Below, piece by piece: positions 10,970-57,396 of a DNA stretch of 64,000 nucleotides. The stretch spans positions 17,608,001 to 17,672,000 of the forward strand of contig OY740808.1 in NCBI GenBank assembly GCA_963514005.1, in the 5' to 3' direction. The stretch is from Raja brachyura. Taxonomy: Eukaryota. The position numbers and the translations under genes were made by a program. Within the stretch, counting starts at the first letter, position 1. The number at the start of each line of letters is the position of its first letter. A model generated the notes under the pieces. The model was not told the DNA's origin, made no database searches, and saw only the letters and a list, made by a program, of their open reading frames with translations.

Positions 10970-11129
10970 ATAATAGACAGCAATTTGAATGCAAATCAAC
11001 AGGGAGAGAACAGGTTTAAAGGTCGTACCAAAGATAGGAAACGTTCACTGATTACATCAATGATTCTGACTTTGGAACTGGCAGTGCAAGTTCAAACTTT
11101 ATGAACAACTAAATTACAGGGAGTATGTT

Positions 11130-28432: not shown

Positions 28433-31156
28433 TTACCATTCATACCGTTTCAGGCCAGTGGGTGGCGGGGGAGGGCAACAGTTCAAAAAGGTGGTGACCG
28501 GGGTGTGTGGAGTCTTTGACGATTTTAGTGGCTCTGCTGAGGTAGCGTGAGGTGGCAATATCCTCCAGAGAGGGCAGTGGGCAGCCGGTGATTCTGCTGT
28601 TTTTACCACTCTCTGGAGCGCTTTCTTATCTGCAGCAGAGCAGCTTGCATACCACACTGACATGCAATATGTCAGTAGACTCTCAATGGTCGCCCGGTAG
28701 AAGGCCACCAGCAGCTTCTTGGTGTTGTGCCTCCTGAGCACTCTCAGGAAGTGGAGTCTCTGTTGTGCTCTCTTGACGGTTGCAGTGGTGTTGGCCGACC
28801 ATGAGAGGTCCTCGGATACGAGGGCTCCTAGGCATATGAAAGTCTGCACCCTTTCCACACATGCCCCATTTATGCAGAGTGGGGCCGGGTCTGCGTCCAG
28901 TTTCCTCCTGAAGTCCAGTATTAGCTCCCTTGTCTTTGTGGTGTTCAGTGTCAGGTTATTTACTGACCACCACTCTGACAGTCGCTGTATCTCGTCCCCC
29001 CGAGATGAGCCCGACGACAGTTGTGTCTTCAGCAAATTTAATAATTGTGTTGGAAGGGTGGGCAGGTGTACAGTCATAGGTGTATAAGGAGTGGACTCAG
29101 CACACAGCCTTGAGGTGCGCCAGTGCTTAGTGTGATGGAGGAGGAGATGTGGGGGCCGGTTTTAACTCTGTGGGCGGTTTGTGAGAAAGTATTTGATCCA
29201 TGTGCAGATGGAGGGGGAGAGGCCTAGGTCAAGCAGTTTGCTGATTAAAGTGTCCGGAATTATAGTATTGAATACTGAGCGATAATCAATGAATAGCATC
29301 CTCACGTAGCTTTCCTGGTGTTCCAAGTGGGTCAGTGCAGTGTGAGGTGCTATGGCGGTTGCATCCTCAGTGGATCTGTTATCTCTGTAGGCAAACTGAT
29401 GTGGGTCGAAGGAGGGAGGTAGGCTGGTTCTGATGTGATGCAGGACTATTTTTTCGAGGCACTTCATAATCACTGGTGTAAGTGCAATCGGTCTATAGTC
29501 ATTCAAGTCCCAATGGACTGGCTTTTTGGGAATAGGAATGACAGTGGCTGACTTTAAGCAGGGTGGAATGATAGCTTGTGACAGGGAGATGTCAAAAATC
29601 TTTGTGAAGACCCCAGCGAGCTGGTCAGCACATGCCTGGAGTACTTTACTCGGTACTCCATCAGGTCCAGCAGCCTTACTTGGATTCACTGACCTCAACA
29701 CACAGGAACTACAGAAATTACAAGAACAGGCCTCGCATCCTGTTCCTGTAATTTGAGTGTGTGGGTGTTAGAGGCGGGTGGAGGCAGTGAGTCTAGCAGG
29801 CCTGTTAGCCTCAAACCGGGCAAAGAAGCGGTTAAGCTACTCAGCGTCAGCATTTAGTGCTGTTGGTACTGCCTTTATAGTTGATTATGTGCTGTAACCC
29901 TTGCCACACTCTCCGTGGGTCCTTGTGTGACAGGAGGCCCTCGAGCCTCCTCTTGTTGGCCACCTTGGCCTCCTTTATGCCTCTCTTCAGGTCGGCTCTC
30001 ACAGTGCTGTACCGGGCTTGGTCACCTAACCTGAAGGCGGTGTTACGGTTTTTGAGGAGTGCTTGTACCTCACTCGTCATCCAGGGTTTCTGGTTGGGAA
30101 ACACCTCGATGCGTTTATTGACTGTGATGTTGTCAATGCAGCTTTTAATGTAAAAAAGCACAGTTTCTGTGTATTCCTCCAGGTCCCCTTGATCGAATAA
30201 ATCCCATTCTGTGTGATCAAAGCAGTCCTGCAGCTGGGATAGAGCCCCCTCGGGGCCATATTGTGATGGTTTTGGTACTTGGCTTTGTTGTTCTTTTGAG
30301 GGGGGTGTATGCGGGGAAACATGAGCCGTGTGAGGTGGTCTGACTGGCCGAGGTGAGGGAGAGTTGCAGTTCTGTAAGCATGTTTGATGTTTGAGTAAAC
30401 ATGGTCTAAAGTATTTTCCCCCCTTGCACAGTTCACATGCTGGTCGAAGTTGGGAAGTATTGTTTTAAAACTTACTTTGTTAAAATCCCCTGCTATGATG
30501 TGTGCACTGTCAGGGTGGGCTCACTGCTGTTTGTTTACAATGGCTAGTTAGTAGCCGAGGGCAATGCTGATATTAGCATCGGGAGGGATGTAAGCAGCAT
30601 TGACGATCATTACACTCAGCTCTCGGGGTAAATAGAAAGGTCGACATAAAATGAGAGGACTTCAAGATCTTGTTGGCACAGCAGTCATTGTGTAGATAGA
30701 CACAGAGCCCCCCCTCCCCTGCTCTTACAGAACTCCTTGCTTCTGTCCTGCCTGTAGCTAGTGCGGCCTGCTAGTTGCACTGCGGCGTCAGGGATTAACG
30801 GGTGTAACCAGCTTTCGGTTATAATCATCACGCAGCAGGTCCGGATGGTGGAGTTAGACGGTGAAGCGATCAGCAGCTCCAATTCATCCGTTTTGTGCGT
30901 GACAGATTGGGCGTTTGTGAGGAGGATACTCTGAAGCGGAGGTTTGTGTGGTTGCTTCCCCAGCCTCGCCAGTAATCCTGACCAGCCGGCATCCTCGTTT
31001 CTGCTTCCTTTCTCTTTGCCGTCCACGTCGCCTGCCGGTCCAACTCACAATCCACGGTGACTCCGGTGGTCTAGCGATGTCATCCTCTATGTTGTAAGCC
31101 TTCTGAAAGACACTTGTCAGTGTCACAATGTCACAAACTTTATGAAGCAAATCTGT
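28433..31156 (-). mobile_element. Near-full-length degenerate Rex1/Babar-clade LINE (APE endonuclease plus RT)
   Basis: Fragments [78 protein letters not shown] and AQQRLHFLRVLR; many frameshifts and stops. Confidence 0.9.
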
Positions 31157-40561: not shown

Positions 40562-40694
40562 ATGGGTAGGTTTTGAACGACAGAAGTTCGGTGGCGAGCA
40601 GTTTGTTTTGGAGAAGGGCGAATATCCACGATGGGATACGTGGTCCAACAGCCACAGTAGTGACAGGTTGCTGTCACTTCGACCACTCCACGTC
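40562..40694 (+). CDS. CRYBB3: CRYBB3 exon, Greek key 2 ([28 protein letters not shown]...LSLRPLHV)
   Basis: 133 nt; acceptor ttgttctcag; donor GTAAGT. Confidence 0.96.
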
Positions 40695-41940
40695 GTAAGT
40701 ACCTTATTTATTTCTCATGTATCCACTTCTCAGAGAGAAGTAGTTAACCAGACAAAGGAAGAGAAAATTGTTGAGCAAGAACAAACCACATAATGGGGAA
40801 CACAAGTCATAGAAGTGCAAACTGGAGCTCAGTCGGTGAGAAATGCAGTCACAGAACATTGTGAGAAACGGACACAGTGAGTAAGCAAATACAGTCAGAG
40901 AAAGAGAGAACTAATAATATGGCACATAGGCACCAACATTTTAGAAAGCTGAAGGATTCTGTTTGGATAGTGAAATAAAGATCATGATGGGGAGAGACGT
41001 GTAATGTAAATAAAAATATGTTCAGACAGTGCGAGACTGGTCACACATGATTTTAAAAAAGCTCAAGTGAATGCTCTATAAGCCACACATTTAAATTATT
41101 TCTCTCTTACACACACACACGACAATGCAATAACGCCTCGCTCACGGAGTATCCTGTTGCATCAGTGCATGACTAATAGAAAATAGACAGCAATTTGTAA
41201 CGCATTCCGAATCACAGGGCAAAATCTAAATGTACTGTGGATGATGGAGTGAATGTGCACAAACTAGGGTACAATTTAAAAAATGGCCAGTGCATACCAA
41301 CAGATGCCCTGGTTCATGAACAAATAGCTCATTTTCCCTGATGATCCCCTTTTTATGCAGAGGGAAGCTGCCCAAATAATCCATTGCTCTTGTCCTCATC
41401 AGATTCTAATTGGGAGAAGGAACACCAGTATGGTGTATTTAAGCACCTCTATCCCACCCATAAATCTCTTTACAACGTAAACGAGCCTATTTCTGCATAG
41501 AGCCAGAGCCACGGAAACAGGCTGTTTGGTCCACCTTGTCCATGCTGACCAAATTGGCATACTGAGCTAATCTCATCAGCATGCAATTGGCCCAAAGCCC
41601 TCTAAACCTTTCCTATCCATATCTCTGCCTAAACACCTTTTAAAGGTCATAATGGTAACCGCTTCTAAAGCTTCCACATACAGCCAACCATATATTTTGT
41701 TGTACTTGGGACCATGCTGAAGAATTGTAATGGAATCTTTCTTACCAGACTGCTCAACTCTGGCCCAGCTAATGATTGTAACTTGTTTCAGGAGCGGGCC
41801 TTGCACCATCCAAGCATGATTGGCTCCTGCAGTCAAGCACCATGCAGTTTGAAACAGCATGTTAGAAAATTGAGAGCAACATCAATAACGTATTACAAGC
41901 CAGTTGACAACATTATGCTCTTTGTTTTACTTTCCTTTAG

Positions 41941-42083
41941 GATGGTGATGGGCACAAGATCAGTCTCTTTGAAAATGCTGGCTATCATGGAAGGAAAATG
42001 GAGATTGTAGAAGATGATGTTCCCAGTCTGTGGGCTCATGGATTCCAGAACAGGGTAGCCAGCATCAAAGCTGCCAATGGAAC
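41941..42083 (+). CDS. CRYBB3: CRYBB3 exon, Greek key 3 ([12 protein letters not shown]...[23 protein letters not shown])
   Basis: 143 nt; acceptor tttcctttag; donor GTAAGA; [10 protein letters not shown] is typical of betaB3. Confidence 0.96.
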
Positions 42084-42769
42084 GTAAGAAGGCCTTGGTC
42101 CATTTAGACATTTCCTTCCACATTCTCATTTATCTTATTGATACAGCACAGAGGTCAATTTGACAGTTTCTTGCTGCATATCTCAAAAGAATGGTGTGTA
42201 GCCCACTGGTCTAAAACTACTCCTAACATTCCCACATCTGTATGCACAATGAGAAACATGCTCTAGAAATATAAATTATAACAGACAGCTAGAAATATGG
42301 AAAGGATGGTAACTTTGGAAAAAATAATATCCTGGATCAAACTAAACAACTATGGAAGAAGTGTTTAAAACAAAAAGTGAGGCATCCTTGGGTAATAAAT
42401 GCGTCAGTGCCTCTCCCAATATTGCTCACTGTCCTGGATGAGACAATGAAATAGACAGGATCATTGACAGTGTAGATCACAGAAAGTGTTGTTAGGAGGA
42501 TGGATGGAAATCAATCAGTCAGGGTGGCTGAACTAGAGAGAAATTTGTTCCCCAGAATTTATTTTTTCAGTTGGTCCATTAACAGATAGTGTACAGTAGG
42601 CTTGCTAAATATGCAAAATTATGTTCTGTGCCCACTGTTGCAATTATTGAGAAATAAAATAGATGTCCATCCCACTTTGTGTTCCTAAAGATAAATTTAG
42701 AGAAGAACGAATATTCCTGCCGTCCTCTAGTGATTGTTTTCCTGCAATACCCACCCATCTCCCAAGTCA

Positions 42770-43065
42770 TAGTCTTACAGTGTGGAAACAGGCCCTTCGC
42801 CCCAACATGCCCATCTACAATAGTCCTGTCTGCATTTGGCCCATATCCCTCTAAACCTGTTCTACCCATGTACCTATTCAAATGTTCCTTAAATGTTGCA
42901 ATAGTACCTGCCTCAACTACCTCCTCCGGCAGCTCGTTTCCATACACCTACCACCCTTTGCGTGACAAAGTTGCCCCTCAGGTTCCTATTAAATCTTTCT
43001 CCCCTCACCTTATGTCCTCTGGTCCTCTAGTCCCATACTCTGGGAAAGAGACCCGATCTATTCTT
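42770..43065 (-). mobile_element. CR1 3' end (second subfamily)
   Basis: NELPEEVVEAGTIATFKEHLNRYM. Confidence 0.8.
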
Positions 43066-43813
43066 CTCCACGAATCACGCCTCTACCTCTGCACAGTGCT
43101 GTGAGCGGGCCAAGAGCATTTGCACAACTTTTTATTGGTTGCAGAATTATTTGTGTTGGAAAAATAACTGCAAAACTATCCATTGGAAACTCACTTCCAC
43201 TGGCCCTTTATTGTGGCTTGATTATGTACAGATCTGCCCCCACATGTGCTCTTGAACAATCTTAATTTGCAGATTGCACATTTGACATTCACAGCTCACT
43301 AAATAAAACATTAACAAAAAAAAACCCATATTAATTTGCACTTTCTAAATACCACACTAGGTGGCTGTCCATGCAATACCCAATCTGCAATTGTCTGCCA
43401 CACAGTCAGCAGAGGAAATGAAAAGCTGCTTGAGAAAATGACACATGGATGGTAGATATAGATTTTTTCAAAAATCTTAATAATGTTTCTAACTGCTTCC
43501 AACCAGAAAAGGAGGATGGGTGCCGACAGGGGTCTTGAATGAGATATCGCAGGATATCATGTCGTAATTATAATGGGTAAGAAGTTATAAACTGCAAGCT
43601 AAATTGCCAGACCTGTAGAGAGAAGTTAGTATTTAATTATTGGCATGGTACCTGATTTGATGGGATAGATAGATGGGAATTCTACAGAAAGGAGGCATGC
43701 CATTAGCAAAGGTGTTTCTTCAACACGGTTCACCCAAGGTTGTGAAATTGATGAATATTATCCCAAATATTCAAAAAAGGGCAGAATAAATATTGTGTTC
43801 TGTGATCCTACAG

Positions 43814-43991
43814 GTGGGTTGGGTACCAGTACCCAGGTTACAGAGGGCGGCAGTACATCTTTGAAAAGGCAGACTACAAGCATTGGAATGAATGGGATTC
43901 TAACCAGCCGCTGATTCAATCCATTCGTCGCATCAGAGATATGCAGTGGCACAAACGGGGCTGCTTCCAGGTCACACCCCCAAGCAGCTGA
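43814..43991 (+). CDS. CRYBB3: CRYBB3 last exon, Greek key 4 ([14 protein letters not shown]...[15 protein letters not shown])
   Basis: Acceptor atcctacag; stop TGA at 43989-43991. Confidence 0.95.
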
Positions 43992-44979
43992 AGGAGACAT
44001 GAACAGGAACTGAGGCAGGAGGTCAAGGCAAGGATTCATGCAAAGAGGAGGAGGATGAAATAGAATAGGGTCCTACCTGCAGGCATGCTGCCTTTCAATC
44101 CTGGAAAAATAAAACGACTGAAAATAAAATGGCGACTGACAGGAATCGTTTCATGCATATTTCTTTTCCTCTTTAATAAAAACAGTAAAAGTTCACTAAC
44201 CATTGACTAGAATGGCGAAAATATGAGCCAAAGTTCCTGCTCTGATCACTATCCTTTGAACCTGACTATGAAGTCTATGTATGTGGTCAGGCTGGTAATA
44301 ATTCTCTTTTAAAATGGGGCACAGATCAAGACCTCTATTATTGGATTCTGGGTATTATTGCCTGTTGTTAGTCCTCGGGAAGCTAGCAGTGAGCTGCCAT
44401 CTTGAACACTGCAATTCATTTGAGCATTAAAGCAAGTGACACACTTCACAGGGCATTGAGTCAATCAAAAGGAGCCACATCAGAGGTGATCGCGTGGACA
44501 AGACATTCGAGGGCAGCCGAAGGGCAATAAACTGGACCTCTTTTCATTGAGCTTTCAGTAGAGCAGATGCATAACTTGAATTCTATATTTTAATTGTCAT
44601 GAAAAGATTCCATTGGCACATTTTATGAACTGTAAGACTAGCCTTATAACCACAATAGAATGTCAAATGAAGGTGCAAATTATTCCTAAACACCACAAAC
44701 ACCTGGCTGTAAAGCAAGTGCCAAAGTCTTGAAAATCCTTTATTTCAAAAGACATTTGATAGCATGCAAATAGATGAACAGAGTTTCACACTGATAAATG
44801 TGAGATAAACATATCTCATAATAGGGGGAAACAAATCCTCCTTTGACTGTGAACAATAAAATGTTTCAAAGAAAATACCTGACCTTGAACCCACAAAGTC
44901 CATAGTGCCGGAAGTGATCTGAATGAAATGAAAAGCCAACACAATGGTTTTGGTCATTTAACAATCTACATTTTATAAC

Positions 44980-45340
44980 CACCAGCTGGTTGGACAAGGG
45001 CCAGAGATGAACAGACAGGTGTGAGACAAAATAATTGAAAAGTTACAAATTGTGAAGCTGGAGGATGGAATGTAGATGGAAGGGGAAGGAGAGAAATAGG
45101 TGGGAGTCCAGATGGCCCATGGTGAGAAGAAAAATGGGGGATAGGAAAAGAAGGGGGAGGGTGGGGTGTTTTGAGGTTATCTAAAATTGGAGCATTCAAT
45201 GTTCATTGGATTGTATGTTACCAAAGTGGAATATGAGGTATTGTTCCACCAGTTTTTTTTTGTGGCAATAGAGGCGGCACAGGACAGAGAGGTCAGCACG
45301 GGAATGGGAAGAATTCAAATGGTTAGCAACCGGGAGATTG
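44980..45340 (-). mobile_element. Degenerate Penelope 3' fragment
   Basis: Similar to 18480-18850 (aatatgaggtattgttcc..., gggaatgggaagaatt..agcaaccgggag). Confidence 0.6.
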
Positions 45341-45503
45341 ACCTATGAAAGCAAGCAGACCATTCTTGCCTTCTTTCCCATTCTATCTACTTGTATGCTA
45401 CTTTAAGTGAGTTATGGATTTGGATCCCAAGATCCCTCAGTACATCAATGCTCATAAGCGACATGCCATTAATTGGGGTTTTTTCCCCCTTACATTCGAC
45501 CTC

Positions 45504-46033
45504 TGTTACAAGGGAACAGGTTCAAGGATCTGACTAGTAGAACAGGAAAAAAAGGCACTCTCGTCCATTTAGTTGCAAATCAGTTTTATTGACAAGAGAA
45601 GTCAAAAACAATACTTGTCTCGGTATGCGCGGGGTCCAGTTTTATAGCAGCACACCTCTCTCTCTCTGCCACCGTCCACAGAGCTGATCGCGACTCAGCC
45701 CGTCAGCGAACCCTCTCGTACATGAACACATCAGATTTATTGGCAAAAGAGAGAACAAAAATAATACTCATCTTGGCATGAGCGGGGTCCGTTTTATAGC
45801 AGCACATGTCTCTATTTAGCTCTCTTTAGCAGGTAGTATAGCACTACTGGTTTGGCGCACAAAGGTTTAAACACACCGGCTTAACATGTGGAAATTTAAA
45901 CAAAGAGCTGTCGGCTGCAGCGCTAAGGGTTCTAAATATAGCGCTACCGGCTACAGCGCTATGGGCTTTAAACAAAGTGCTATGGCCACAGCACTATGGG
46001 TCACAGACAGTTCGGGAAAATTCTCGTATAACA
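45504..46033 (-). mobile_element. 3' LTR of an endogenous retrovirus-like element (530 bp)
   Basis: Inverted termini TGTTA...TAACA; on the minus strand it is immediately preceded by a polypurine tract GAGGGGTGGAA (46034-46044); TATAAAA and AATAAA on the minus strand. Confidence 0.8.
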
Positions 46034-46099
46034 TTCCACCCCTCGAACAGTCTGGTTACCGTCACATCCGGCCCACAGGCTTTATCTCATTAAATCCGG

Positions 46100-46340
46100 C
46101 CCACAGGCTGTAGTAAGGTTCACACATTCATGATGCCAACCCACACATACAACGCAGTAATATGGCCAACAAGATTGTCCCAATGGTCAGTCCCCAGTGC
46201 ACCACTGTTGTCCCCAACCTCCAAACATCCCGAAAGGCCACCACCCTCCTGGGGGATTGTAGTCGTGGTACTGTTCTCCGACCTGTCAAATCTTCCTCAT
46301 GGCTTCCTGGATGTTGTCAGCAAGGTCAATGATGTTCTTT
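46100..46340 (-). pseudogene. env: Degenerate retroviral env TM C-terminal remnant
   Basis: Minus-strand translation KNIIDLADNIQEAMRKI*QVGEQYHDYNPPGGWWPFGMFGGWG, then after a frameshift VVHWGLTIGTILLAILL: heptad, Trp-rich membrane-proximal region and TM helix, directly upstream of the PPT and LTR. Confidence 0.65.
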
Positions 46341-46346
46341 TACCCC

Positions 46347-46595
46347 ACTCAGGATCAAACCACTCACCGAGTCTGTATGACCACGCATGGTATAAATTAA
46401 CTTGTATTGTCAGAGGACTCAACCTTAATGTCGTCAGTAATACCACCAGAGATAATCTTATCGCTTGTGCCATTAAACGTTGCTGTCAATACTTGGTACG
46501 TGTTTTACGATTACAGCCTTCTTCTGAATGTTCCATAGTTTCACCGTTTCATCATTGCTTCCTGTACAGACCAACTGTGGTCCCTGTCGGGCTGG
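46347..46595 (-). pseudogene. SNRNP40: Intronless fragment of SNRNP40 (U5 snRNP 40 kDa WD40 protein)
   Basis: Translation with two frameshifts: PARQGPQLVCTGSNDETVKLWNIQKKAVI / NTYQVLTATFNGTSDKIISGGITDDIKV / L*QYKLIYTMRGHTDSVSGLILS. Recalled human sequence: PARRGPQLVCTGSDDGTVKLWDIRKKAAIQTFQNTYQVLAVTFNDTSDQIISGGIDNDIKVWDLRQNKLTYTMRGHADSVTGLSLS. Confidence 0.88.
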
Positions 46596-46863
46596 TGCTA
46601 TAAGGCAGGAAGTTCCAGGATTTTGATTCAGTTACGAAAACAGTGACAGTTATACCAGTCTCTAATTCTGATTGAAAGGACATTTTCAGATTTGGCAACC
46701 TTGGCTCTGACTTCCCTTTTCTTTCTATTTGGGAAAGGTCACAAGTTTGAGGAAGTCCTGTCAAGGAAGCCTTGACAAATTGCTGCAGTGCAACACGACT
46801 AGTGGAGGAAGTAAATATGATGGATGAAGGCAGCAGGGGAAGGACAGTGAGCCTGTGGGTCGA

Positions 46864-47305
46864 TAGACAATAGGTGCAGGAATAGGCCATTCGGAACCTT
46901 CAAGCCAGCACCGCCATTCAGTGTGATTATGGTTGATCATCCAGTACCCCGTTCCTGCCTTCTCCCCATATCACCTGACTCCGCTTTCTTTAAGAGCTCT
47001 ATTTAACTCTTTCTTGGAAGCATCCAGAGAATTGGCCTTCACTGCCTTCAGAGGCAGGGAATTCCACAGATTCACAACCCTCTGTTTGAAAACGTTTTTT
47101 CTCATCTCCGTTCTAAATGGCTTACCCCTTATTCTTAAACTGTGGCCCCTGGTTCTGGACTCCCCCAACATCGGGAACATGTTTCCTGCCTCTAGCATGT
47201 CCAAACCCTTATTAATCTTACATGTTTCAATAAGATCTAAATTCCAGAGTATACAAGCCCTGTCGCTCCATTCTTTCAACATATGACAGTCCCGCCATCC
47301 CGGGA
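46864..47305 (-). mobile_element. CR1 3' fragment
   Basis: ORF 46971..47282 RTRGHSLRIRGKPFRTEMRK. Confidence 0.88.
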
Positions 47306-47320
47306 CTCAGCGGTCAAGGT

Positions 47321-47345
47321 GGGGGGGGGGGGGGGGGGGGGGGGG
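47321..47345. repeat. Poly-G run (~25 nt)
   Basis: Seen directly in the sequence. Confidence 0.9.
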
Positions 47346-47929
47346 CGGCAGGAAAATCATAAAAACACTGAAAAATAAGAAATATTGTTGTGTAGAGGGA
47401 TGAGATCTGATGACATTTGAGGTATGGTATGTTAGAATGCAGGTGCAGCAGTGGCAAAGGAAATGGCATGTTAACATTTATTGCAAGGGATAAAGAAGGC
47501 AAAAGCAAGTGGGCCTGGCAGAGATTCAAGGCTCCAATGCAGTGTTAGTCTTCTCACCTAATGGAGGATATATTTGCCTTGGGAGGCAATGCATCATAAA
47601 TTTAATAGACTGTCTTGGATTGGCTGAAGAGGAGATACTCAGTCAGATTGACCTACACTGTCTGGAGGCATGCATGAAAGGTATTCTCTGATGTGTGCAT
47701 GATTCTGGCGAGGCCTGACATAGTAGGTGTAGGAGCTGGTGTCCTCAAATGGGTAGGATAATCCTAGAATTGGGGAGAAGAGGCGAAATTTCTTTCAGTG
47801 GAGTTTGGATGCTCAGTCACCAAGGATATTCAAGATAGAGACTGATGGATTTTTGGACAACCAGGGAACCATAGGATTTAGGAGTTGGTGGCGAATTGGA
47901 TTTGAAATACAGGATCAACTGTTAGCATG

Positions 47930-49020
47930 TGTAAGAAGGAACTGCCAATGCTGCCAAGACACAAAAAGCTAGAGTAACTCAGCGGACAGACTTAGTCTGA
48001 AGAAGGGTCACGACCCAAAACGTCTCCCATTCCTTCTCTCCAGAGATGCTGCCTGTCACGCTGAGTTACTCCAGCTTGTTACAGAAACATAGAAACATAG
48101 AAATTAGGTGCAGGAGTAGGCCATTCGGCTCTTCGAGCCTGCACCTCCATTAAATATGATCATGGCTGATCATCCAACTCAGTATCCCGTACCTGCCTTC
48201 TCTCCATACCCTCTGATCCCCTTAGCCACAAGGGCCACATCTACCTCCCTCTTAAATATAGCCAGTGAACTGGCCTCAACTACCCTCTGTGGCAGAGAGT
48301 TCCAGAGACCCACCACTCTCTGTGTGAAAAATGTCCTTCTCATCTCGGTCCTAAAGGATTTCCCCCTTATCCTTAAGCTGTGACCCCTTGTCCTGGACCT
48401 CCCCAACATCGGGAACAATCTTCCTGCATCTAGCCTGTCCAACCCCTTAAGAATTTTGTAAGTTTCTATAAGATCCCCTCTCAATCTCCTAAATTCTAAA
48501 GAGTATAAACCAAGTTTATCCAGTCTTTCTTCATAAGACAGTCCTGACATCCCAGGAATCAATCTGGTGAACCTTCTCTGCACTCCCTCTATGGCAATAA
48601 TGGCCTTCCTCAGATTTGGAGACCAGAACTGTACGCAATACTCCAGGTGTGGTCTCACCAAGACCCTATACAACTGAAGTAGAACCTCCCTGCTCCTATA
48701 CTCAAATCCTTTTGCTATGAAAGCTAACATACCATTCCCTTTCTTCACTGCCTGCTGCACCTGCATGCCTACTTTCAATGACTGGTGTACCATGACACCC
48801 AGGTCGCGCTGCATCTCCCCTTTTCCTAATTGGCCACCATTTAGATAATAGTCTGCTTTCCTGTTTTTGCCACCAAAGTGGGTAACGTCACATTTATCCA
48901 CATAATACTGCATCTGCCAAACATTTGCCCACTCACCCAGCCTATCCAAGTCACCTTGCAGTCTCCTAGCATCCTCCTCACAGCTAATGTCTTATGTCTT
49001 ATGTCTATCAGCTTATGTCT
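47930..49020. mobile_element. Penelope-derived short insert with a 16-bp TSD, interrupted by a CR1
   Basis: atcaactgttagcatg at 47914-47929 and 49021-49036; pLTR with HHR-like motif at about 47993-48030. Confidence 0.75.
48082..48987 (-). mobile_element. Young CR1 LINE 3' part (~0.9 kb; 256-aa open RT C-terminus)
   Basis: ORF 48179..48949 is uninterrupted; (TTTCTATG)n tail. Confidence 0.93.
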
Positions 49021-49689
49021 ATCAACTGTTAGCATGCTTGATAATGGCGTACTCATGATTCTATTTTTTGTGTTCTTAAATATCATTCTCAACAAAGGAG
49101 AAAGAAATTGAAAGAAAAAAAATTGCCACTGCTATTATTATATATTATTTCTGGGAAATGTGTATTTCACATTAATATTGAATTGAACAGATGCACGGAG
49201 AGGAAACATTTAGAGGAATATGGGTCAGGTTCAGGCAAATGAGACCAGCCTAGATGGGGTATATTGGTCAGCATGGGTGATTTGGGCAGAAGAGTCCATT
49301 TTTGTGCTGTATGATTCTATGACTCCAATTACAGCAACAGACTAATTTTTATCGGTAACATTGCTCACCTAGGAGTATTTAAGTTCAAAATCACCATGCC
49401 ATACCATTATCATGCCACAACATTTAGCATATTTCTCTCAATCTATTAACTTGATTCCATTTTTTTCCAGAACTGCACTGGAGTTCTAGTTCCGATGGGG
49501 GAACAGGAGTCTGGCTCAAAAATCACTGGAGTAGGGCTGATGTGCGCTTTGTCTGTAAGGTCATGCTCATAGTTGTTGGCACAAATAGAGTTGATGCAAG
49601 CACTCTTCAAATCTCTCTGCTCTGAACCCAAACAATGAGGGCATCCAGTGAATCTGAAAGCTAATGAAATAATTCTCCACTCCTTGTAT

Positions 49690-49869
49690 TCTGCAAAACA
49701 ATGCACCCTGCACGTCATTAAAAGTTTTGCTTTATTTAGCATTAATCCCAATCCATCTATTCACAAGTCCACTCTGACTATTTAACAAATATTTTTGGCA
49801 TGGTTCTATTTGAGTTCAGTATAAATTAGCAGGCAGACTGCTATTCGGCACAGACACGACTGGGTACTG
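49690..49869 (+). promoter_or_regulatory. CRYBB2: CRYBB2 promoter and probable very short non-coding exon 1
   Basis: Sox-type AACAAT at 49697, MARE-like TGC-N8-GCA at 49728-49741, TATAAA at 49820 and donor CTG|GTAAGA at 49869/49870. Mammalian betaB2 is recalled to have a tiny non-coding first exon. Confidence 0.55.
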
Positions 49870-51585
49870 GTAAGAGCGTTTACATCCCCAGACAATTCTA
49901 AACGTTTATAAAATAGCTGGAATCAAAATATTGTATTCAGGCAACTGGTGCTTCTTTCTTTTTCTACATCTGTCGATTTATATTATTTTCTGCTGAAGGC
50001 TACGCAAGGGAAATTGCTATTTAGTAGAATGTGGTAAACTGTAATGGGCAGTTTTGGAAATGTGCATGGGAATAGTGTGAGATGCTTTGAATATGAAATT
50101 GTGGTTTGTTGTTAACTAGTTAATATTCTGTAACCAATCATGAATACAAAAAAATTGTTTTTTCCCCCCTAACGTTATACATTTTCAGGATCAGGGGATT
50201 TATTGCCCACTGCTGAATGCCCTTGAGAATGTGATGAGGCTTCTCAAGCGTATGCACCTTCCTCAGCGTATGCAGTCCTGCAGGGCCACTGTTCCGCGGG
50301 GCAGGGTGTTGTAGGATTTACACCCAGCAACAACAAAGGGATGGAATTTCAGAGTGCTTTGTGATTCGGAGTGCAACCTAAGGTGCTGATGTTCCCAGGT
50401 GTCTGAAGATCTGTCCTTGGAGGTGGAGGTTGCAGATTTGTGAAGTGCTTTACACATAGTACATACACGTAGCTGCAATGCCTTTTGTAAATTGTACACA
50501 CCACAGCCACTGTACGTCAAGTTTTAAGGGTATGAATGTTTTAATTGGTAATAGTCTACCCAATTAAGTCTGGTGTTGCGTCCTGAATGGTATTACGTTT
50601 CTTGAGTGTTGTTGAGACTGCATCCATCCAGCCAATTGAAAAATATTCAATTGCACTACTGAGTTGTGTCGGAAATGGATCATTTATGGAGGGATCGACA
50701 ACCTCTGTCCTGCTCCTGTAGCCACAGTATCTGCACAATTTATTTGCCCATTCCAGTTAAAGTTCTATACTACGTAATGGAACTGGATTAATTGAGGATT
50801 GGGGAACAAAGCATTATCTTAATGGATAATGTAAATTATGAGATTTACTCTTTATCTACAAAGTTCAAAACAGCCATAGTGTTGTTAGACCAAACTCACA
50901 AAATGTTAAAAAAAAAATCTACATTTATAAAATTACCAGAAACTAATGGATACTACAAGAGTAACACATGGACTGTTTCAGCAAAGAGCAGATACAAAAT
51001 AGTAAATTATAGCCCGGAATCCATTGAGGTTCACATAAAGAATGATAGAGATTCATGTGATTTAAAGAAAAACAGAGAATGATAGAACATTGCAGAAATC
51101 TGCCCAACATATGTTAAGAGAAATTGTGAAATTGTTAAAGAGAGACAGAGTGAGATAGAGAGAGAAATGTGTGATATTTATACGTGATTCTGTTGGAACT
51201 TCAGATTGTTTCAGGGAGCTTATAATTTTGGTGAGTGGCACACCCATCGAGTAAAAAACTGCAGATGTCACAGTTAAAAAAAAATGCCAGTAGATGTTAG
51301 CCCATTATACTTTTTCTTGGAATATTGTGAAATCGGCAAGATAGTTGCATACTATTGTCTAAATATATGCAAAAGCAAATTTTGATGGGAGAATTGGTGA
51401 GACCTCTCAACAAGTTCTTGTTCTCACAGTTAGAGTGTTATTTCAGTAATGGAAACTCAGAATCTCGGGTATGTGCTATATGGCAGATTATATTATTTCT
51501 TGGCAATGGACACATTAATTTCAGGTTGTATTACGTTACATATAGTTTTTGTGACAAACGAAGGTAGAAATAAATGAATAGTATG

Positions 51586-51795
51586 GTTTAATTCTGAGAA
51601 CAAGTCTTATTCAACTGTTTTGTGGGCATAGCTGGCAAATGAATAACTAAATATCAGTGATTTGCAGCATAAAGTAGTTAAATTCTGAGAGGACAGAATT
51701 TAACCATTTCATGCTGCAAATCACTGATATGTAGTTATTCATTTGCCAGCTATGCCCACAAAACAGTTGAATTGGACTTGTTCTCAGGATTAAAC
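51586..51795. repeat. 210-bp inverted repeat (102-bp arms, 6-nt loop); MITE-like hairpin
   Basis: Arm 51586-51687 is the reverse complement of 51694-51795, with about 7 mismatches counted by eye; loop AGAGGA. Confidence 0.92.
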
Positions 51796-51852
51796 AGACA
51801 TTTTACAGAAATCCTCTGTTATCTGTCCTCTGTTAGGGTTTTCTCTGCAACA

Positions 51853-51912
51853 ATGGCATCTGAACAGAACCCAACGCCCAAGCAGCACCCCACATCGACC
51901 GCTGCCCATAAG
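51853..51912 (+). CDS. CRYBB2: CRYBB2 first coding exon (MASEQNPTPKQHPTSTAAHK)
   Basis: Acceptor ctctgttag at 51836; acaATGG Kozak context; donor AAG|GTTAGT. Confidence 0.92.
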
Positions 51913-52096
51913 GTTAGTTCTTGCTGTCTTCATTCAGAACTATCGATCAATAAAGTTTGAATTCTGATTCAATTAAAACAAGGGAATGATACTTCCTAAA
52001 CCACTGGACTATCAATTCAAAATTCATTGTTTTCTCGATTTCTTATTTGTAATAATGGCTACGTCAGCAGAATCTCATTTTATGACACCGTTTCAG

Positions 52097-52215
52097 ATTG
52101 TCCTGTTTGAGCAAGAAAACTTCCAGGGTCGTTTTCATGAGTTGAATGGTCCCTGCCCCAATTTGAAAGAAGCCGGATTGGGAAAAGTTGGTTCCCTTGT
52201 GGTGCACTGTGGACC
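52097..52215 (+). CDS. CRYBB2: CRYBB2 exon, Greek key 1 ([27 protein letters not shown]...)
   Basis: 119 nt; acceptor tttcag; donor GTAAGT; [12 protein letters not shown] is diagnostic of betaB2. Confidence 0.97.
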
Positions 52216-52429
52216 GTAAGTATTACATGGAATTCTGCAGAATCTGCAACTAACCACTTTGAGCACTTTATGCTCCTATTTTCAGGATTAATGTTTACTG
52301 CAGTCTATTGAAATTTAAAACAAACTGCAGATTCTGGGATCCCGGAATAAAAATAAGAATGCCTTTCTACAGATGCCTCCTCACCTGTGTAGTGTTCATG
52401 TCTTTCGTAGTGTCATAGAGCAAGGCACT

Positions 52430-53110
52430 CAGCCTAATCCATCCAAGCTGACCAGGTATACCCTGTTGCTCTTACTATGCCTGTAAAATCTGTAAAACAA
52501 ATTTCCTTTACCTTGACCGCCAGATCTACCTCATGTCCTCTATTTGTCCTCCTGATTTCCCAATCAAGTATACACCCACTTGTGTATACGTTTCTTGTAT
52601 TCCTCGAGGGATTCGCTTGATCCCAGCTGCCAATACCTGACATTTGCCGAACTGTTAACCCTTATACGGTTCCCTACTCCTGCCAGCCTTGCCCTTCACT
52701 CTAATGAAGCATGCTGCCCCTGGACTCTCCTAATCTCATCTTTAAATGCCTCCCATTTGCCAAACATCCCTTTACCTGTAAACAGCATCCCCCCAATCAA
52801 CCTCTGCAGGTTCCTGTCTAATACGTTCAACAATGGCCTTGCTCCAATTTAGGATTTTCACTTGTGGACCAGTCCTATCTTTTACACGACTATTTTTAAA
52901 CTAATGCAATTATGGTCACTTGTCCTAAAGTGTTTCCCTAACAAAGCTTCAAACACTTGCCTTGCCTCATTCCACAATAGGAGATCCACTATTTTGCCCT
53001 CACTGGGAGGGCCTTCTATATATTGTTGATGAAAACATTCCTGGGCATACTCAGGAAATGTCACCCATTTGCGCAATGTGTTTCCCAATCAATACGAGGC
53101 AAGTTAAAAA
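52430..53110 (-). mobile_element. Degenerate CR1 endonuclease-region fragment in a CRYBB2 intron
   Basis: QQYIEGP....VDLLLWNE..HFRTSDHNCISLKIV APE-like motif. Confidence 0.6.
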
Positions 53111-53347
53111 TCACCTCCTATCTTGAGCATTATTATCATGATTGAGTCAGCCATAGGCCAAATGTCCTTACTGAGGAAATAGATATACGAGTTATCGTGC
53201 TTGGAGATTCATTTGAACCAAAAAAAAATCTGGTCTCTGCAACTGGTAATGAGCAACATTAGATCACTCCAACTAATAAATATTTTTGTTATGAGAGGGT
53301 AACAGTTATTACTGTCCAAAACCAAACATTGTTTATTTTATTTTCAG

Positions 53348-53480
53348 ATGGATTGGCTATGAACAGACTGGCTGCAAGGGTGAACAGTTTGTGTTTGAGA
53401 AAGGAGAATATCCTCGCTGGGACACATGGACAAACAGTCGCCGAAGTGACAACATTGGTTCCTTCAAGCCTGTGAAACTG
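53348..53480 (+). CDS. CRYBB2: CRYBB2 exon, Greek key 2 ([34 protein letters not shown]...)
   Basis: 133 nt; acceptor ttttcag; donor GTACGT. Confidence 0.97.
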
Positions 53481-53671
53481 GTACGTTGGTATTTATCACA
53501 CAGCTAACTAACCAACCATCATCAGAGCAGCAGAAATGCAGGACTTTTTAAATGTCCAAATGGTTTACTCAAGTCTTATCAATAGGGAAAGTTGCAGGAC
53601 CGGCTGTCCATGCTGAGTTCGCTGATCTCAACCAAGACAGCAGGGGAGCTGATAGAATTGTTCTTGGTACT

Positions 53672-53848
53672 TAGAAACATAGAAAATAGGTGCAGGAGGA
53701 GGCCATTCGGCCCTTCGAGCCAGCACCGCCATTCATTGTGATCATGGCTGATCGTCCGCTATCAATAACCCGTGCTTGCCTTCTCCCCATATCCCTTGAC
53801 TCCACTAGCCCCTAGAGCTCTATCCAATTCTCTCTCAAATCCTCTTAA
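53672..53848 (-). mobile_element. CR1 3' end
   Basis: Reverse complement of the CR1 tail. Confidence 0.85.
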
Positions 53849-55919
53849 AACTTGTTCAACCTACTTGTCAGGTAGGGACCTAACAAATTGTTTAGGAAAG
53901 AGACTGGATTCCAATCAGTAATCAACAATTCCGTAACAAAACGTCCAAAACAGTAACAACAGATAGAAGATGCTTGTGTGCTGAGAATATGGAAAATATT
54001 AAATTGAAATTTTGAAATTCAGAATGTCTGTTGATCATTTGATGGTAATTTCCAGATTTTTATTTTCAATTTCCTCTCTCTTTTTCTATGCCCTCCACAT
54101 AAATATATTTCCTGTTGGTGGAGAAAATTTCACAGTTGACAACTCTTATTTCGTGTTTCACCCAAATATTGTAACTGCTCCTCCTGTGTGAGCCAAAGAG
54201 CTATTAGACTTTTGGGGCATTAAAGTCAAACTTACCCTATCCTCAATGAGTATCCATGCCAATTTTCCAACCTGAGTCATTAGGCTGATGTGAAGACTGA
54301 TAATCCTAATTTATTCCTTCAACAGAGAGAGAAAAAATGGATCAAGTTCTCAAACTTGATTAATGTCTGGATAAGATCACAACCTGGAGCAGGATATCTT
54401 TCGATACGTAGTTCTTAACAATATGAAGAGAAAGATTTGCTAATTTGGCCATCAGGCTTTCTTAATCACTATCCAGAGTGACAATGTTTTGTACTATCTT
54501 TTACTATTTGTTCTAAGACAAAGTTTCTATAACCAAGGCAGGTCATACGCACAGGCATGGCGAGCTACAAGTACGATGAAAATCTTGCTTGCAGAATGGG
54601 CACATAGTCTCAGACAAACATGCCAAAACAAAATTACACATCACTTCTTCAAGACTGTAAAAAACAAGAAAGGAACGTGCAAAAGGAAGACATAAGTACA
54701 AAACACAATTAGGAACAAAAAAACAAGTCAACAGCAGTGCATAAAATTAAGTTGTGATAGTCTTGAAACGGAGGCTGGACCACTCCAACACATATAAAAC
54801 AAGTTACATATGATAGTATCAGTAAGCCCGAAACTTCTGTAAATTATTAGTGAGTAGAACTTTAACCATCAGTCCACTTTAAAAAAAATGAAGATTCATA
54901 CCATTATGTAACAAAGCAGTTATTCTCAAAACACCTTGTATAGGAACAATTAGAGGCATTTTTTTAGTGGAATTAATAACTCTCATCATTATATTCTTCA
55001 GATTCTGTTAATTTAGAACTGAGTTCGCTTTAGCTATGTAAATACTTCAGACATTCTGTCTATGATTGAGAGACAACACTTACTTCCTAATTGTAATATT
55101 TTGCATCAGGACTGACCTGTTTGCTATGTTACCAATTATGGTTGCTCCCAAGGCCAGATTTTACAAAGTTTGGTGTTTCTGATTTGAGGATGGTCAATGA
55201 GCAAAGCAAAGCTGGATAGTCTTTCTTTGAAGATTCCCCTCCAAAAATAATCTATTTCTCAAGCTATCACTCATCTTCAATTTTCCTTTGTATTCCAAAG
55301 TCCCTAGCCATGGTGCTGCCTTTGAATTACACAGCCATCTTTCCCAGAAACCTTGAATGAGATTTCTAACCCTGCCACTTTAAGAGAACCCTTACGCAAG
55401 TTACAGCTGGCATTCGAAATGACTGGGGCTTTAATAAGCCATCCGTATGACTATGTGTAACCTATGATATAGTTGATTACATCATTGCATTTTTTTTTCA
55501 TCTGCACCTTCTCCGGTGCTGTGACGCTATAAAGCTGTAGCTCTACATTCTGCCCCCTGGGTATTTTTCTCTTTATCCTATCTGTATGCTTGTACGTGGC
55601 TTGATTGTACTCGTGTGTGGTGTCTTTAGCTGGACAACATGCAAAACAAAGCTTTTCACTATATCTCAGCCCACATGACAACAATAAACCAATACCAACC
55701 ACCTCAGTTGTGTGTGATGGCGCTTACCTGTTGTCCATCCAGTCAATTGTAGTCGATCACCTACAATGGCTTTCCTTCTTTCTCCAGCAGTTACCCTGGG
55801 ATCCACCCTTGGCCCAATCCCATTTCTCATTTACATGCTTCATCTCGGCAACATAAATGTAACATCAAGTTCTACTTGAGAGGAGGAGGACTTATCTTTT
55901 TATGTCATTGCATTTACAG

Positions 55920-56062
55920 GATGGGCATGAGCACAAGATCATTCTTTATGAAAACCCCACCTTCACTGGAAAGAAAATTGAAATCATTGATGATGATGTA
56001 CCAAGTTTCCATGCTCATGGATACCAGGAAAAAGTGTCATCCATTCGTGTTCTAAATGGAAC
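55920..56062 (+). CDS. CRYBB2: CRYBB2 exon, Greek key 3 ([41 protein letters not shown]...)
   Basis: 143 nt; acceptor catttacag; donor GTGAGT. Confidence 0.97.
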
Positions 56063-57227
56063 GTGAGTACTGAGAGAAGTCTATTAGAAAAAAAAGCTTT
56101 CTATTTACATCTTCTGACTCTGACACATGCTAAAAATCCTCCCATTAGACAAGCTTATTTTCTTAATGTGGGGAACTAGTGATGGGTGCTGCAGCTGCTT
56201 TTTGACCTCCTTCCATCAATAGACCCGGTGAAGACTTTTGCCAGACTTCTACAACTACAAGCTCATTGTGGAGCGCAGACCATCATTGACCTATCCATGC
56301 AAGTGTTTACTGCAGCTTGTAGATTTTCTAAAATCCTTGACTCCTCCAATAATGAAAAAGAGAAATATAAAATTAGATTTCTATTCCTACCTTAAAAGGA
56401 TTGGGTTTGCATTTTTAATTTATCAAATTCTCACTTGAAATGTATGCTATCCATTTCAAAACTGGATAGGTGGCAACGAAAGACAAAATGTAAGTCCTTT
56501 TCAAGGGATCACATTGGTGCTGTGAGTGAAAAGTATGGCTTCAATATTTTTGAACAAATTGTTGAAAATGTTAGAGGAACAAGTCTAGACCTGTTGTCTT
56601 CAAGCTATGAATATGACAGTCCTAAACCTAATCTGTCACTTAAAGATTTATCCACAAAATTATTCCAAAATACAACATTTGGCTTGATAGGAAGGCTTAG
56701 AGGAATTTACATTACAATAAGTCAACAGAGGCCGAGCCAAACCTCAGTGCTCCATAATCAATCAAAACAACAGGTTGAGATTGTACCCTCATCACAAGGC
56801 CATAATAGTATTCATCTTTCATGAGACATTTTTACTGTTTTTGTCTCCACAAAAAAAAGCGAATTAAAAGTTAGCATTTATATCGCTACTTTCATAATGT
56901 CCCAAAGTATGTTTCAATTACAGTTTGGGATCCACCACCCGAGACAATGGACATGACTCAGTATGTTTCTTGATCTGAAACTCTTGCCTCGAAAGGTTTA
57001 AATCCCTTTATGGAATGGAAGGGTCATTCAATTATATTTAATATTTCCACTTCCTTTCTGGGCAGTGTTGCCACCCAACTAGTTGTTTTCCGTCTCTAGT
57101 TAGCTCAGCTGAAATCAGTTAGTTCAGTATTGGACTTGGGGGTTGGAAGTCTGTCTGTTGGACCTCTTTTCAATTGTGAAGTTGAGAGTTTGTGGCATTC
57201 CTCTTCCATGTTTCATTTTATTTTCAG

Positions 57228-57396
57228 ATGGGTTGGTTACCAGTACCCAGGCTACAGAGGCTACCAATATTTGCTGGAGAAGAAGGAATACAAGGACAAT
57301 AGTGAATTTGGAGCCCAACAGCCTCAGATCCAGTCTGTCAGACGTATTAGGGATATGCAGTGGCATCAGAGGGGTGTCTTTCATCCCACCAATTGA
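57228..57396 (+). CDS. CRYBB2: CRYBB2 last exon ([18 protein letters not shown]...[16 protein letters not shown])
   Basis: Acceptor ttttattttcag; C-terminus QWHQRG.FHP.N matches betaB2. Confidence 0.97.

What the first reader, a model, noticed from the sequence alone, without database searches (positions are those of the whole stretch)
45504..46595. Endogenous retrovirus remnant carrying a spliced fragment of the host SNRNP40 mRNA fused to env (candidate retroviral gene capture)
Seen on the minus strand, in one orientation and directly adjacent: about 250 bp translating to two WD40 repeats that closely match SNRNP40 (46595-46347); an env TM stub with heptad, WW-rich region and TM helix (46340-46100); a PPT (GAGGGGTGGAA); and a TGTTA..TAACA LTR. 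The host fragment has no poly(A) tail and no introns, although by my recollection the human gene has junctions near ..TVK|LWD.. and ..DIK|VWD... It sits where the rest of env should be. Established: acutely transforming retroviruses capture spliced host mRNA by template switching and lose viral coding sequence. Inference: this is a fossil of such a capture in a cartilaginous-fish ERV, involving a core spliceosome gene. It is now decayed (frameshifts, stops) and the 5' half of the provirus is missing.
Basis: partly seen in the sequence, partly recalled or inferred. Interest (0 to 1): 0.85.

Follow-up and report, generated by a model that had tools for sequence, protein, structure and literature searches.

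The report
Fish retrovirus fossil beside host mRNA
Between two eye-lens genes of a cartilaginous fish lies the decayed tail end of a retrovirus joined directly to a scrap of a splicing-machinery gene, most likely picked up by accident while the virus copied itself: a known kind of event with no sign of function here.

Summary
On the minus strand, 46595-46344 is a decayed copy of SNRNP40 codons 150-236 (66 of 83 aligned codons identical to thorny-skate SNRNP40). Within 4 nt it joins the C-terminal stub of a retroviral env whose best relative is a sawfish ERV env, then a polypurine tract and a 530-bp TG..CA LTR. It lies antisense between two beta-B crystallin genes, so not at the SNRNP40 locus. 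The two coding pieces are out of frame, so there is no protein fusion. The 5' neighbour is an old host repeat, not virus; no 5' LTR or gag/pol was found, and the LINE next to the LTR lacks both its halves. So the locus was rearranged, and the SNRNP40-env junction could be a deletion scar. Best reading (0.62): host-mRNA capture by template switching, later truncated or copied here. Rivals: LINE retrocopy plus deletion (0.20), cDNA repair patch (0.12). Exon junction positions are recalled, not tool-checked; copy number could not be tested. Such capture is documented in zebrafish, chicken, frogs and birds; my searches found no cartilaginous-fish case. Interest 0.35.

The parts
46596..46790 (-). 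Old host repeat remnant forming the 5' flank; broken at the SNRNP40 junction; not retroviral
   Evidence: Global alignment to a second copy at 50290-50480: 1 of 2000 random window segments scored as high (boundaries chosen after looking). No env profile hit, no Pfam hit in three minus frames of 46601-52602. Its reading as the 3' end of an L2/CR1-like LINE is recalled.
46344..46595 (-). Decayed internal piece of SNRNP40 coding sequence (skate residues 150-236, human 159-245), contiguous, truncated at both ends
   Evidence: Two frameshifts, one stop. 17 minimal nonsynonymous changes over ~188 sites in 81 codons, pN 0.09 (the 6 codons at the frameshifts left out).
46340..46343 (-). SNRNP40-env junction: at most 4 unassigned bases; the two reading frames differ
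   Evidence: SNRNP40 alignment ends 46344, env alignment starts 46339.
46128..46339 (-). C-terminal stub of a gamma-type-like ERV env: second heptad, Trp-rich membrane-proximal region, TM helix; begins 8 residues after the CX6CC motif of its relative; one in-frame stop (46288-46286) and a frameshift between 46213 and 46199
   Evidence: CX6CC of P0005 ends at residue 337 and the match starts at 345.
46045..46127 (-). Env-to-PPT spacer with a perfect 16-nt direct repeat (46109-46094, 46081-46066)
   Evidence: Read directly from the sequence.
46034..46044 (-). Polypurine tract, marking the LTR as a 3' LTR
   Evidence: unique purine-run + TGTTA site in the window.
45504..46033 (-). 530-bp 3' LTR, TG...CA, 5-bp terminal inverted repeat; ~36-nt tandem units in U3 (45897-46004); duplicated TATA/poly(A)-signal unit (45813-45727 and 45661-45576, 82% identical; TATAAA 45798 and 45646, AATAAA 45741 and 45590)
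   Evidence: No second copy in the window.
45339..45503 (-). 165-bp internal piece of a CR1-type LINE starting at the LTR edge (the integration target); neither its upstream nor its downstream remainder is found nearby
   Evidence: Aligns to LINE copies at 13580-13740 and 48715-48817, 0 of 300 shuffles each; start at 45503 against the copy at 49-226; remainders not detected (best weak hit 47 bp, 2 of 300). The CR1 label is recalled.
45217..45338 (-). Piece of another repeat abutting the LINE piece (Penelope-like by recall)
   Evidence: Matches 18852-18719, 0 of 300 shuffles.
43815..43979 (+). Context: last coding exon of the upstream beta-B crystallin gene
   Evidence: B2, B1 and B3 score alike; CRYBB3 only by recalled tandem synteny.
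51877..57396 (+). Context: CRYBB2 gene (start codon near 51877; exons near 52094, 53349, 55932, 57229-57396)
   Evidence: (last exon vs beta-crystallin B2, E 2e-32).

Best explanation
A relic of host-mRNA capture by an endogenous retrovirus. Inferred steps: a spliced SNRNP40 mRNA, an abundant housekeeping transcript, was co-packaged with viral RNA. During minus-strand synthesis reverse transcriptase left the viral template just downstream of env's CX6CC region and copied the host mRNA from about codon 236 towards its 5' end, so most of env was replaced. The chimeric cDNA integrated normally at its LTR end, into a CR1-type LINE. Later the 5' part (rest of the insert, any gag/pol, 5' LTR, upstream half of the LINE) was lost by deletion; or the 1.26-kb block 46595-45339 was copied here from a donor locus, which would explain in one event why both of its ends are truncated. 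It has since decayed neutrally and encodes nothing. Shown: identity, order, orientation and boundaries of the parts, the missing flanks, the lack of frame and of poly(A). Inferred: that the junction arose in a virion, the order of events, and that the piece is spliced (recalled intron positions).
For: Junction flush within 4 nt and inside env, same strand as the provirus. Host piece internal and cut at the 3' end with no poly(A), as in LTR-mediated retrocopies, which are partial, 3'-truncated and replace part of an internal ORF (PMC5131818 section 5). PPT plus intact TG..CA end shows integrase-type insertion. Similar damage in both pieces (1 stop + 2 frameshifts in 252 nt; 1 stop + 1 frameshift in ~195 nt). 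CpG observed/expected of the SNRNP40 piece (0.75) and LTR (0.78) both stand above the flanking repeats (0.17, 0.30) and the window (0.36), compatible with similar, younger age (weak). Priors: LTR elements made 5 of 7 young retrocopies in zebrafish and 4 of 10 in chicken; CR1 elements appear not to mobilise mRNAs in trans (PMC5470649 passage). My rough inference: the main rival needs a deletion whose far end falls in same-strand ERV coding sequence (about 0.5% of this window, halved for strand), a cost of some hundred-fold that capture does not pay.
Against: The 5' flank is not viral, so the two-sided signature is absent. A rearrangement certainly occurred and could have produced the junction. 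Capture is rare per ERV: 254 of more than 470,000 bird ERVs carried host domains (PMC12287698); on that figure the odds against the retrocopy-plus-deletion rival shrink to about even. A zf-RVT-bearing LINE remnant is present at 11620-12108, so a poly(A)-recognising LINE may exist in this genome (family reading recalled). The env+spacer CpG ratio (0.39) does not match the other two. No WD40-env chimeric protein among 16 candidates (weak test). Nucleotide microsimilarity at the junction could not be tested.
Confidence: 0.62

Rival explanations
1. Two independent insertions joined by a deletion: a LINE-made, 5'-truncated SNRNP40 processed pseudogene inserted in the old repeat, and an ERV inserted in a CR1 copy a few kb away on the same strand. 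One deletion then removed the retrocopy's 3' end and poly(A), the spacer, and the 5' provirus, creating the SNRNP40-env junction.
For: Needs only one deletion, like the best model. The 5' end of the host piece abuts host repeat DNA, as a 5'-truncated retrocopy would. The LINE's upstream half is missing. Retrocopies occur in all vertebrate lineages (PMC13320880 passages). A possible L1-type LINE remnant is in the window.
Against: Needs a retrocopy and an env-bearing ERV in the same ~8-kb intergenic interval, same strand, with both breakpoints inside them. The 3' remainder of the old repeat should then be gone too, and no TSD was found (longest shared word 8 nt, far from the junction). Non-mammalian lineages have fewer retrocopies. 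Similar decay of the two parts would be a coincidence.
Confidence: 0.2
2. A repair patch: a double-strand break or deletion spanning the 5' provirus was sealed by end-joining with a 252-nt cDNA fragment of SNRNP40 mRNA (class 2 templated sequence insertion), making both junctions in one event.
For: Explains both junctions at once; class 2 insertions lack TSD and poly(A), show microhomology or a few untemplated bases, and can derive from spliced cDNA (PMC5110952 sections 8-9). The junctions here are blunt to 1 nt (5') and up to 4 unassigned nt (3').
Against: Such patches are described with microdeletions, whereas several kb must have been lost here; spliced cDNA is one donor class among several; sense orientation would be a coin toss; the described cases are human and L1-dependent.
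Confidence: 0.12
3. Assembly chimera, or a DNA-level (unspliced) duplication of one SNRNP40 exon next to an ERV remnant.
For: Read support could not be examined; exon positions were not confirmed by any tool (searches gave none).
Against: The piece carries chondrichthyan residues and ~9% nonsynonymous decay with stops and frameshifts, so it is an old genomic copy, not contamination or the live gene. No intron-like flank at either end. 87 codons in one internal exon would be unusually long (general knowledge), and recalled junctions fall after K168 and K209 inside it.
Confidence: 0.06

Closest known systems
LTR-mediated retroposition (Tan et al. 2016, PMC5131818; abstract and sections 5, 6, 10, 21 read)
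   Same: Partial mRNA copy cut at both ends, no poly(A)/TSD, replacing part of an internal ORF of an LTR element, sense orientation.
   Different: Their cases have the LTR element on both sides and demonstrable microsimilarity; here only the 3' side is viral and microsimilarity is untested. [quoted passage not shown]
OGFr capture by frog ERVs with gamma-type Env (bioRxiv 10.1101/2021.11.23.469661; abstract, sections 7 and 10 read)
   Same: Anamniote ERV with gamma-type env carrying exon-only host sequence.
   Different: OGFr lies in pol, is kept in a large share of copies of several lineages, and is partly expressed; here one decayed, out-of-frame piece in env.
Host domains in bird ERVs (PMC12287698; passages and section 11 read)
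   Same: Fossil ERVs carrying cellular gene pieces at varied positions.
   Different: Those were found within recognisable ERVs; a search of its one held supplement for WD40, SNRNP40 and 'WD repeat' gave 0 occurrences.
Acutely transforming retroviruses (v-src, v-sis; PMC13297096 passages; mechanism otherwise recalled)
   Same: Intronless host sequence replacing viral coding sequence, 3' env/PPT/LTR kept.
   Different: They express a growth-promoting protein under selection; here no in-frame product, a two-blade WD40 scrap that could not fold as the propeller (inference), and neutral-looking decay.
Chondrichthyan ERV env proteins annotated 'PABLB member 1 Env-like' / syncytin-like (Pristis pectinata P0005 and shark relatives)
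   Same: The stub is homologous to the HR2/membrane-proximal/TM end of P0005.
   Different: Only the last ~65-70 codons remain, broken; SU, fusion peptide, ISD and CX6CC are absent.
Class 2 templated sequence insertions (PMC5110952; abstract, sections 8 and 9 read)
   Same: No TSD, no poly(A), end-joining-like junctions, cDNA donors possible.
   Different: Described in humans with microdeletions; no link to ERVs.

Membership tests
LTR/ERV-mediated retrocopy (Tan 2016) | Partial copy of a host mRNA, contiguous across exon junctions | tested here: inconclusive
   Contiguity over 87 codons shown. Junctions after human K177 and K218 (c.531, c.654) are recalled; they fit the PDB numbering, but no call gave the exon structure.
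LTR/ERV-mediated retrocopy (Tan 2016) | Part of an internal viral ORF replaced by the host piece | tested here: met
   Env homology starts 8 residues after CX6CC, within 4 nt of the host piece; no upstream env found.
LTR/ERV-mediated retrocopy (Tan 2016) | Same LTR element on both sides; 5' and 3' LTR present | tested here: not met
   5' flank is a host repeat; no second LTR; no Pfam hit in 6 kb upstream on the minus strand. It therefore works like such a retrocopy but is not filed as a confirmed member.
LTR/ERV-mediated retrocopy (Tan 2016) | Microsimilarity between mRNA and element at the switch point | not testable with these tools
   No nucleotide sequence of the parent gene or of a sister provirus was available.
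LTR/ERV-mediated retrocopy (Tan 2016) | No LINE hallmarks (poly(A), TSD) | tested here: met
LTR/ERV-mediated retrocopy (Tan 2016) | Secondary copies sharing the switch point (seen in some cases) | not testable with these tools
   None in the 64-kb window; no eukaryotic genome collection on hand.
ERV 3' end (env-PPT-LTR) | Env-homologous sequence, then PPT, then TG..CA LTR with TATA box and poly(A) signal | tested here: met
ERV 3' end (env-PPT-LTR) | Target-site duplication around the provirus | not testable with these tools
   The 5' junction of the provirus is not present.
Gamma-type Env (Chen et al.) | ISD and CX6CC motif | tested here: not met
   Absent from the remnant, which starts after them; present in its relative P0005. 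Filed only as a remnant homologous to such an env.
Gamma-type Env (Chen et al.) | Heptad repeat and transmembrane region | tested here: met
   Alignment to P0005 345-407; hydrophobic stretch.
Acutely transforming (transducing) retrovirus | Captured gene expressed in frame, alone or fused to a viral ORF | tested here: not met
   Frames differ and a stop precedes the env stub; piece broken three times.
Acutely transforming (transducing) retrovirus | Captured gene is a proto-oncogene conferring transformation | tested here: not met
   It is a fragment of the U5 snRNP 40-kDa protein; transformation itself not testable.
LINE-mediated processed pseudogene | mRNA 3' end, poly(A) tail and TSD | tested here: not met
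   Piece ends at codon 236 of 348; no A-run or TSD; no other SNRNP40 piece in the window. Tenable only with a later deletion.
Class 2 templated sequence insertion | No TSD/poly(A); microhomology, microdeletion or untemplated bases at both junctions | tested here: inconclusive
   First half met; junction detail needs the pre-insertion allele.

The most novel reading that the evidence does not exclude
The block is one surviving copy of a non-autonomous, helper-dependent ERV lineage of rays or skates that replaced most of env with a SNRNP40 mRNA segment and was amplified as a unit, with more complete copies elsewhere in the genome. That would be a fossil transducing retrovirus lineage in cartilaginous fish, for which my searches found no published case. 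The double truncation of the 46595-45339 block is compatible with a donor locus elsewhere.
Probability: 0.15. Interest if true: 0.6.

Novelty: new member of a known kind. Interest (0 to 1): 0.35.

Why it matters
If the capture reading holds, it extends host-mRNA capture by env-bearing ERVs to cartilaginous fish and shows that such viruses can be a source of retrocopies in genomes dominated by CR1-type LINEs, which seem not to mobilise mRNAs (PMC5470649). It gives a 60-100 nt junction probe that settles the question in one genome-wide search. It does not suggest a new mechanism or function: the piece is out of frame, decayed, and from an abundant housekeeping mRNA, the expected accidental passenger. 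No report of SNRNP40 in a retrovirus, or of gene capture by a cartilaginous-fish ERV, appeared in searches (listings read; open-access library only).

Tried and rejected
Second LTR, other env or other SNRNP40 pieces in the window: none. Gag/pol upstream: Pfam on three minus frames of 46601-52602 gave 0 families; beyond that lies CRYBB2; 47 of the 82 ORFs were scanned and gave only LINE and crystallin domains. tRNA/PBS-linked genes and Rfam families: 0. Phage collection: no match, as expected. Idea that the old 5' repeat was split by the block and continues at 44340-44442: that piece aligns to the reference copy's 3' part (6 of 2000), but 44443-44545 also aligns weakly to the part already held at 46.6k (31 of 2000) and the local test was not significant (136 of 2000); left open, probably a separate copy. 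Idea that the host piece mutated during viral passage: 8 G>A vs 3 C>T changes, p = 0.23, and 4 of 17 changes are CpG-type, as in ordinary genomic decay; not supported. A 5-nt word just upstream of the junction compatible with env's conserved Pro-Asp codons (chance about 0.02 within +-3 nt) was noticed after the fact and is 2 nt off register; not counted as evidence. Dating the LTR from its internal repeats: too few CpG sites. Exon structure of SNRNP40 from papers: three searches and supplement searches of six papers (PMC8894380, PMC9089920, PMC12159957, PMC8649777, PMC8698468, PMC9834665) gave no coordinates; two files there were unreadable. Cluster membership and atlas look-alikes for the env stub stayed unchecked. 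Supplementary Table 13 of PMC13320880 (retrocopy counts per lineage) and the supplements of the bioRxiv env paper were not seen and may bear on the priors and on novelty.

Full report
Observation. Three frame segments of 46598-46329, searched separately, hit human U5-40K (SNRNP40) colinearly at residues 159-187, 192-219 and 224-245. A protein search returned Amblyraja radiata SNRNP40 (P0004; 2 hits among 16 candidates, the other an unnamed WD40-repeat protein that I did not use). A frameshift-aware alignment places skate residues 150-236 at 46595-46344, with 66 of 83 aligned codons identical and a score of 294 against at most 38.5 in 15 shuffles. The piece has two frameshifts and one stop. It follows the skate protein at several positions where the human protein differs (human residues partly shown, partly recalled), so it is an old fish copy. 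No other part of SNRNP40 is in the window.

The env stub. 46339-46190, read with X at its stop, found 1 protein at E<=0.001 among 1.84 billion representatives (P0005). That protein carries TLV_coat, is closest to syncytin-1 among solved structures, and is a Pristis pectinata ERV env with many shark relatives. The stub matches its residues 345-407, starting 8 residues after CX6CC. The support is real but rests on that one relative: Pfam and the word-indexed search gave nothing, 0 of 12 other named env proteins hit the stub, and their joint profile ranked it first in the window only at iE 0.079. The gap between the two homologies is 46343-46340. The frames differ and the env frame has a stop just before the stub, so there is no fusion protein.

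PPT and LTR. GAGGGGTGGAA at 46044-46034 is the only purine run of at least 10 in 11 followed by TGTTA on either strand of the window, and TAACA closes a 530-bp unit at 45504. The LTR has ~36-nt tandem units in U3 and a duplicated TATA/poly(A)-signal unit. No second copy exists in the window.

Surroundings. The element lies antisense between the last exon of a beta-B crystallin gene (43815-43979) and CRYBB2 (start near 51877, last exon 57229-57396), so this is not the SNRNP40 locus. Right after the LTR comes 165 bp from the middle of a CR1-type LINE, the likely integration target; neither its upstream nor its downstream remainder is detectable in the interval. Right before the SNRNP40 piece is an old host repeat that has a second copy at 50.2-50.5 kb and is cut at the junction; no viral coding sequence was found in the 6 kb upstream. 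So the 5' provirus and the host DNA that flanked it are both gone. At least one of the two junctions of the host piece is a rearrangement breakpoint, or the whole 46595-45339 block was copied here from elsewhere.

Age and selection. In 81 codons (6 at the frameshifts left out) 17 minimal nonsynonymous changes fall on about 188 sites (pN 0.09), 4 of them CpG-type: neutral decay of an otherwise highly conserved protein. The env stub is broken at a similar density. CpG observed/expected is 0.75 for the host piece and 0.78 for the LTR, against 0.17 and 0.30 for the flanking repeats and 0.36 for the window, but 0.39 for env plus spacer; this is weakly compatible with co-insertion. A strand bias that might point to mutation during viral passage was not significant (8 vs 3, p = 0.23).

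Splicing. The piece is contiguous over 87 codons.

Mechanism. The best model (0.62) is template switching from viral RNA onto a co-packaged SNRNP40 mRNA, normal integration, then loss or ectopic copying of part of the locus. It explains the flush junction inside env, the orientation, the 3' truncation without poly(A), and the similar decay. Tan et al. describe exactly such partial, ORF-replacing copies and credit LTR elements with 5 of 7 young retrocopies in zebrafish and 4 of 10 in chicken; CR1 elements appear unable to mobilise mRNAs. The main rival (0.20), a LINE retrocopy and an ERV joined by one deletion, needs both in the same ~8-kb interval and strand; by my rough reckoning it pays a hundred-fold or more for that, offset by an unknown excess of LINE-made retrocopies in this lineage. 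On the bird figure of 254 host-domain ERVs among more than 470,000 the two models come out about even, so the odds span roughly 1:1 to 100:1. A cDNA repair patch (0.12) makes both junctions at once but is described with small deletions. Misassembly or a single-exon duplication gets 0.06.

Comparison and novelty. It works like an LTR-mediated retrocopy, but one defining feature, the element on both sides, was tested and not met, so I do not file it as a confirmed member. It is not an acutely transforming virus: no in-frame product, no growth gene. Host-gene capture is published for frog ERVs with gamma-type env and bird ERVs. Searches showed no SNRNP40 capture and no cartilaginous-fish case, within an open-access library; WD40/SNRNP40 did not occur in the bird paper's one held supplement. 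Under every reading the parts are of known kinds, hence 'new member of a known kind'. What I saw of each paper: PMC5131818 abstract and sections 5, 6, 10, 21; bioRxiv 2021.11.23.469661 abstract and sections 7, 10; PMC12287698 passages, section 11 and a supplement search; PMC5110952 abstract and sections 8, 9; PMC13320880, PMC5470649 and PMC13297096 passages; six further papers supplement searches only. Repeat family names (CR1, L2, Penelope, L1) and CRYBB3 synteny are recalled.

Verdict. Real and well spotted; capture is likely but unproven from this locus; no function implied. Interest 0.35, rising to 0.6 if the junction proves to be amplified (probability 0.15). A genome-wide search with the junction would decide it.

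Noticed in passing
window 40563-43979 and 51877-57396 (+): Two tandem beta-B crystallin genes; the downstream one is CRYBB2, the upstream one probably CRYBB3 (not resolved). The ERV remnant is antisense between them, about 1.5 kb past the upstream gene's stop codon.
   Followed up: partly
window 45813-45727 and 45661-45576 (-): The LTR carries two copies (82% identical, 151-153 nt apart) of a unit with TATA box and AATAAA, i.e. a duplicated U3/R boundary; unusual in a 530-bp LTR and a useful family marker.
   Followed up: partly
window 46595-45339 (-): The block SNRNP40-env-LTR-LINE piece is truncated at both ends (host piece mid-codon sequence at one end, LINE piece mid-element at the other), which could mean it is a 1.26-kb ectopic copy of a donor locus.
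   Followed up: partly
window 46426-46416 (-): At the recalled second exon junction the sequence looks like a splice donor and carries three differences from the reference in nine bases; the downstream codons resume at once, so it is read as local decay, not a retained intron.
   Followed up: partly
window 46109-46066 (-): Perfect 16-nt direct repeat between the env stop and the PPT.
   Followed up: no
window 44340-44442 (-): Very old piece of the same repeat family as the 5' flank, covering the part just after the point where the 46.6-kb copy breaks; split element versus separate copy unresolved.
   Followed up: partly
window 11070-12111 (+): LINE remnant with a zf-RVT domain, unlike the CR1-type copies; possibly L1/Tx1-like (recalled), relevant to whether mRNAs can be retroposed in this genome.
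   Followed up: no
window 28433-31044 (-): Fragmented LINE with RVT_1 and ALKBH8_N-type C-terminal domain, about 2.6 kb.
   Followed up: no
window ~51600-51960: Similar peptide strings appear on opposite strands just upstream of the CRYBB2 start, suggesting a local inverted duplication of about 150 nt.
   Followed up: no
window 50003-56002 (+), frame of 50002: A weak DUF3100 Pfam hit (E 7e-4, below its cut-off) near 50617-50790 in a stop-ridden frame; probably chance.
   Followed up: no
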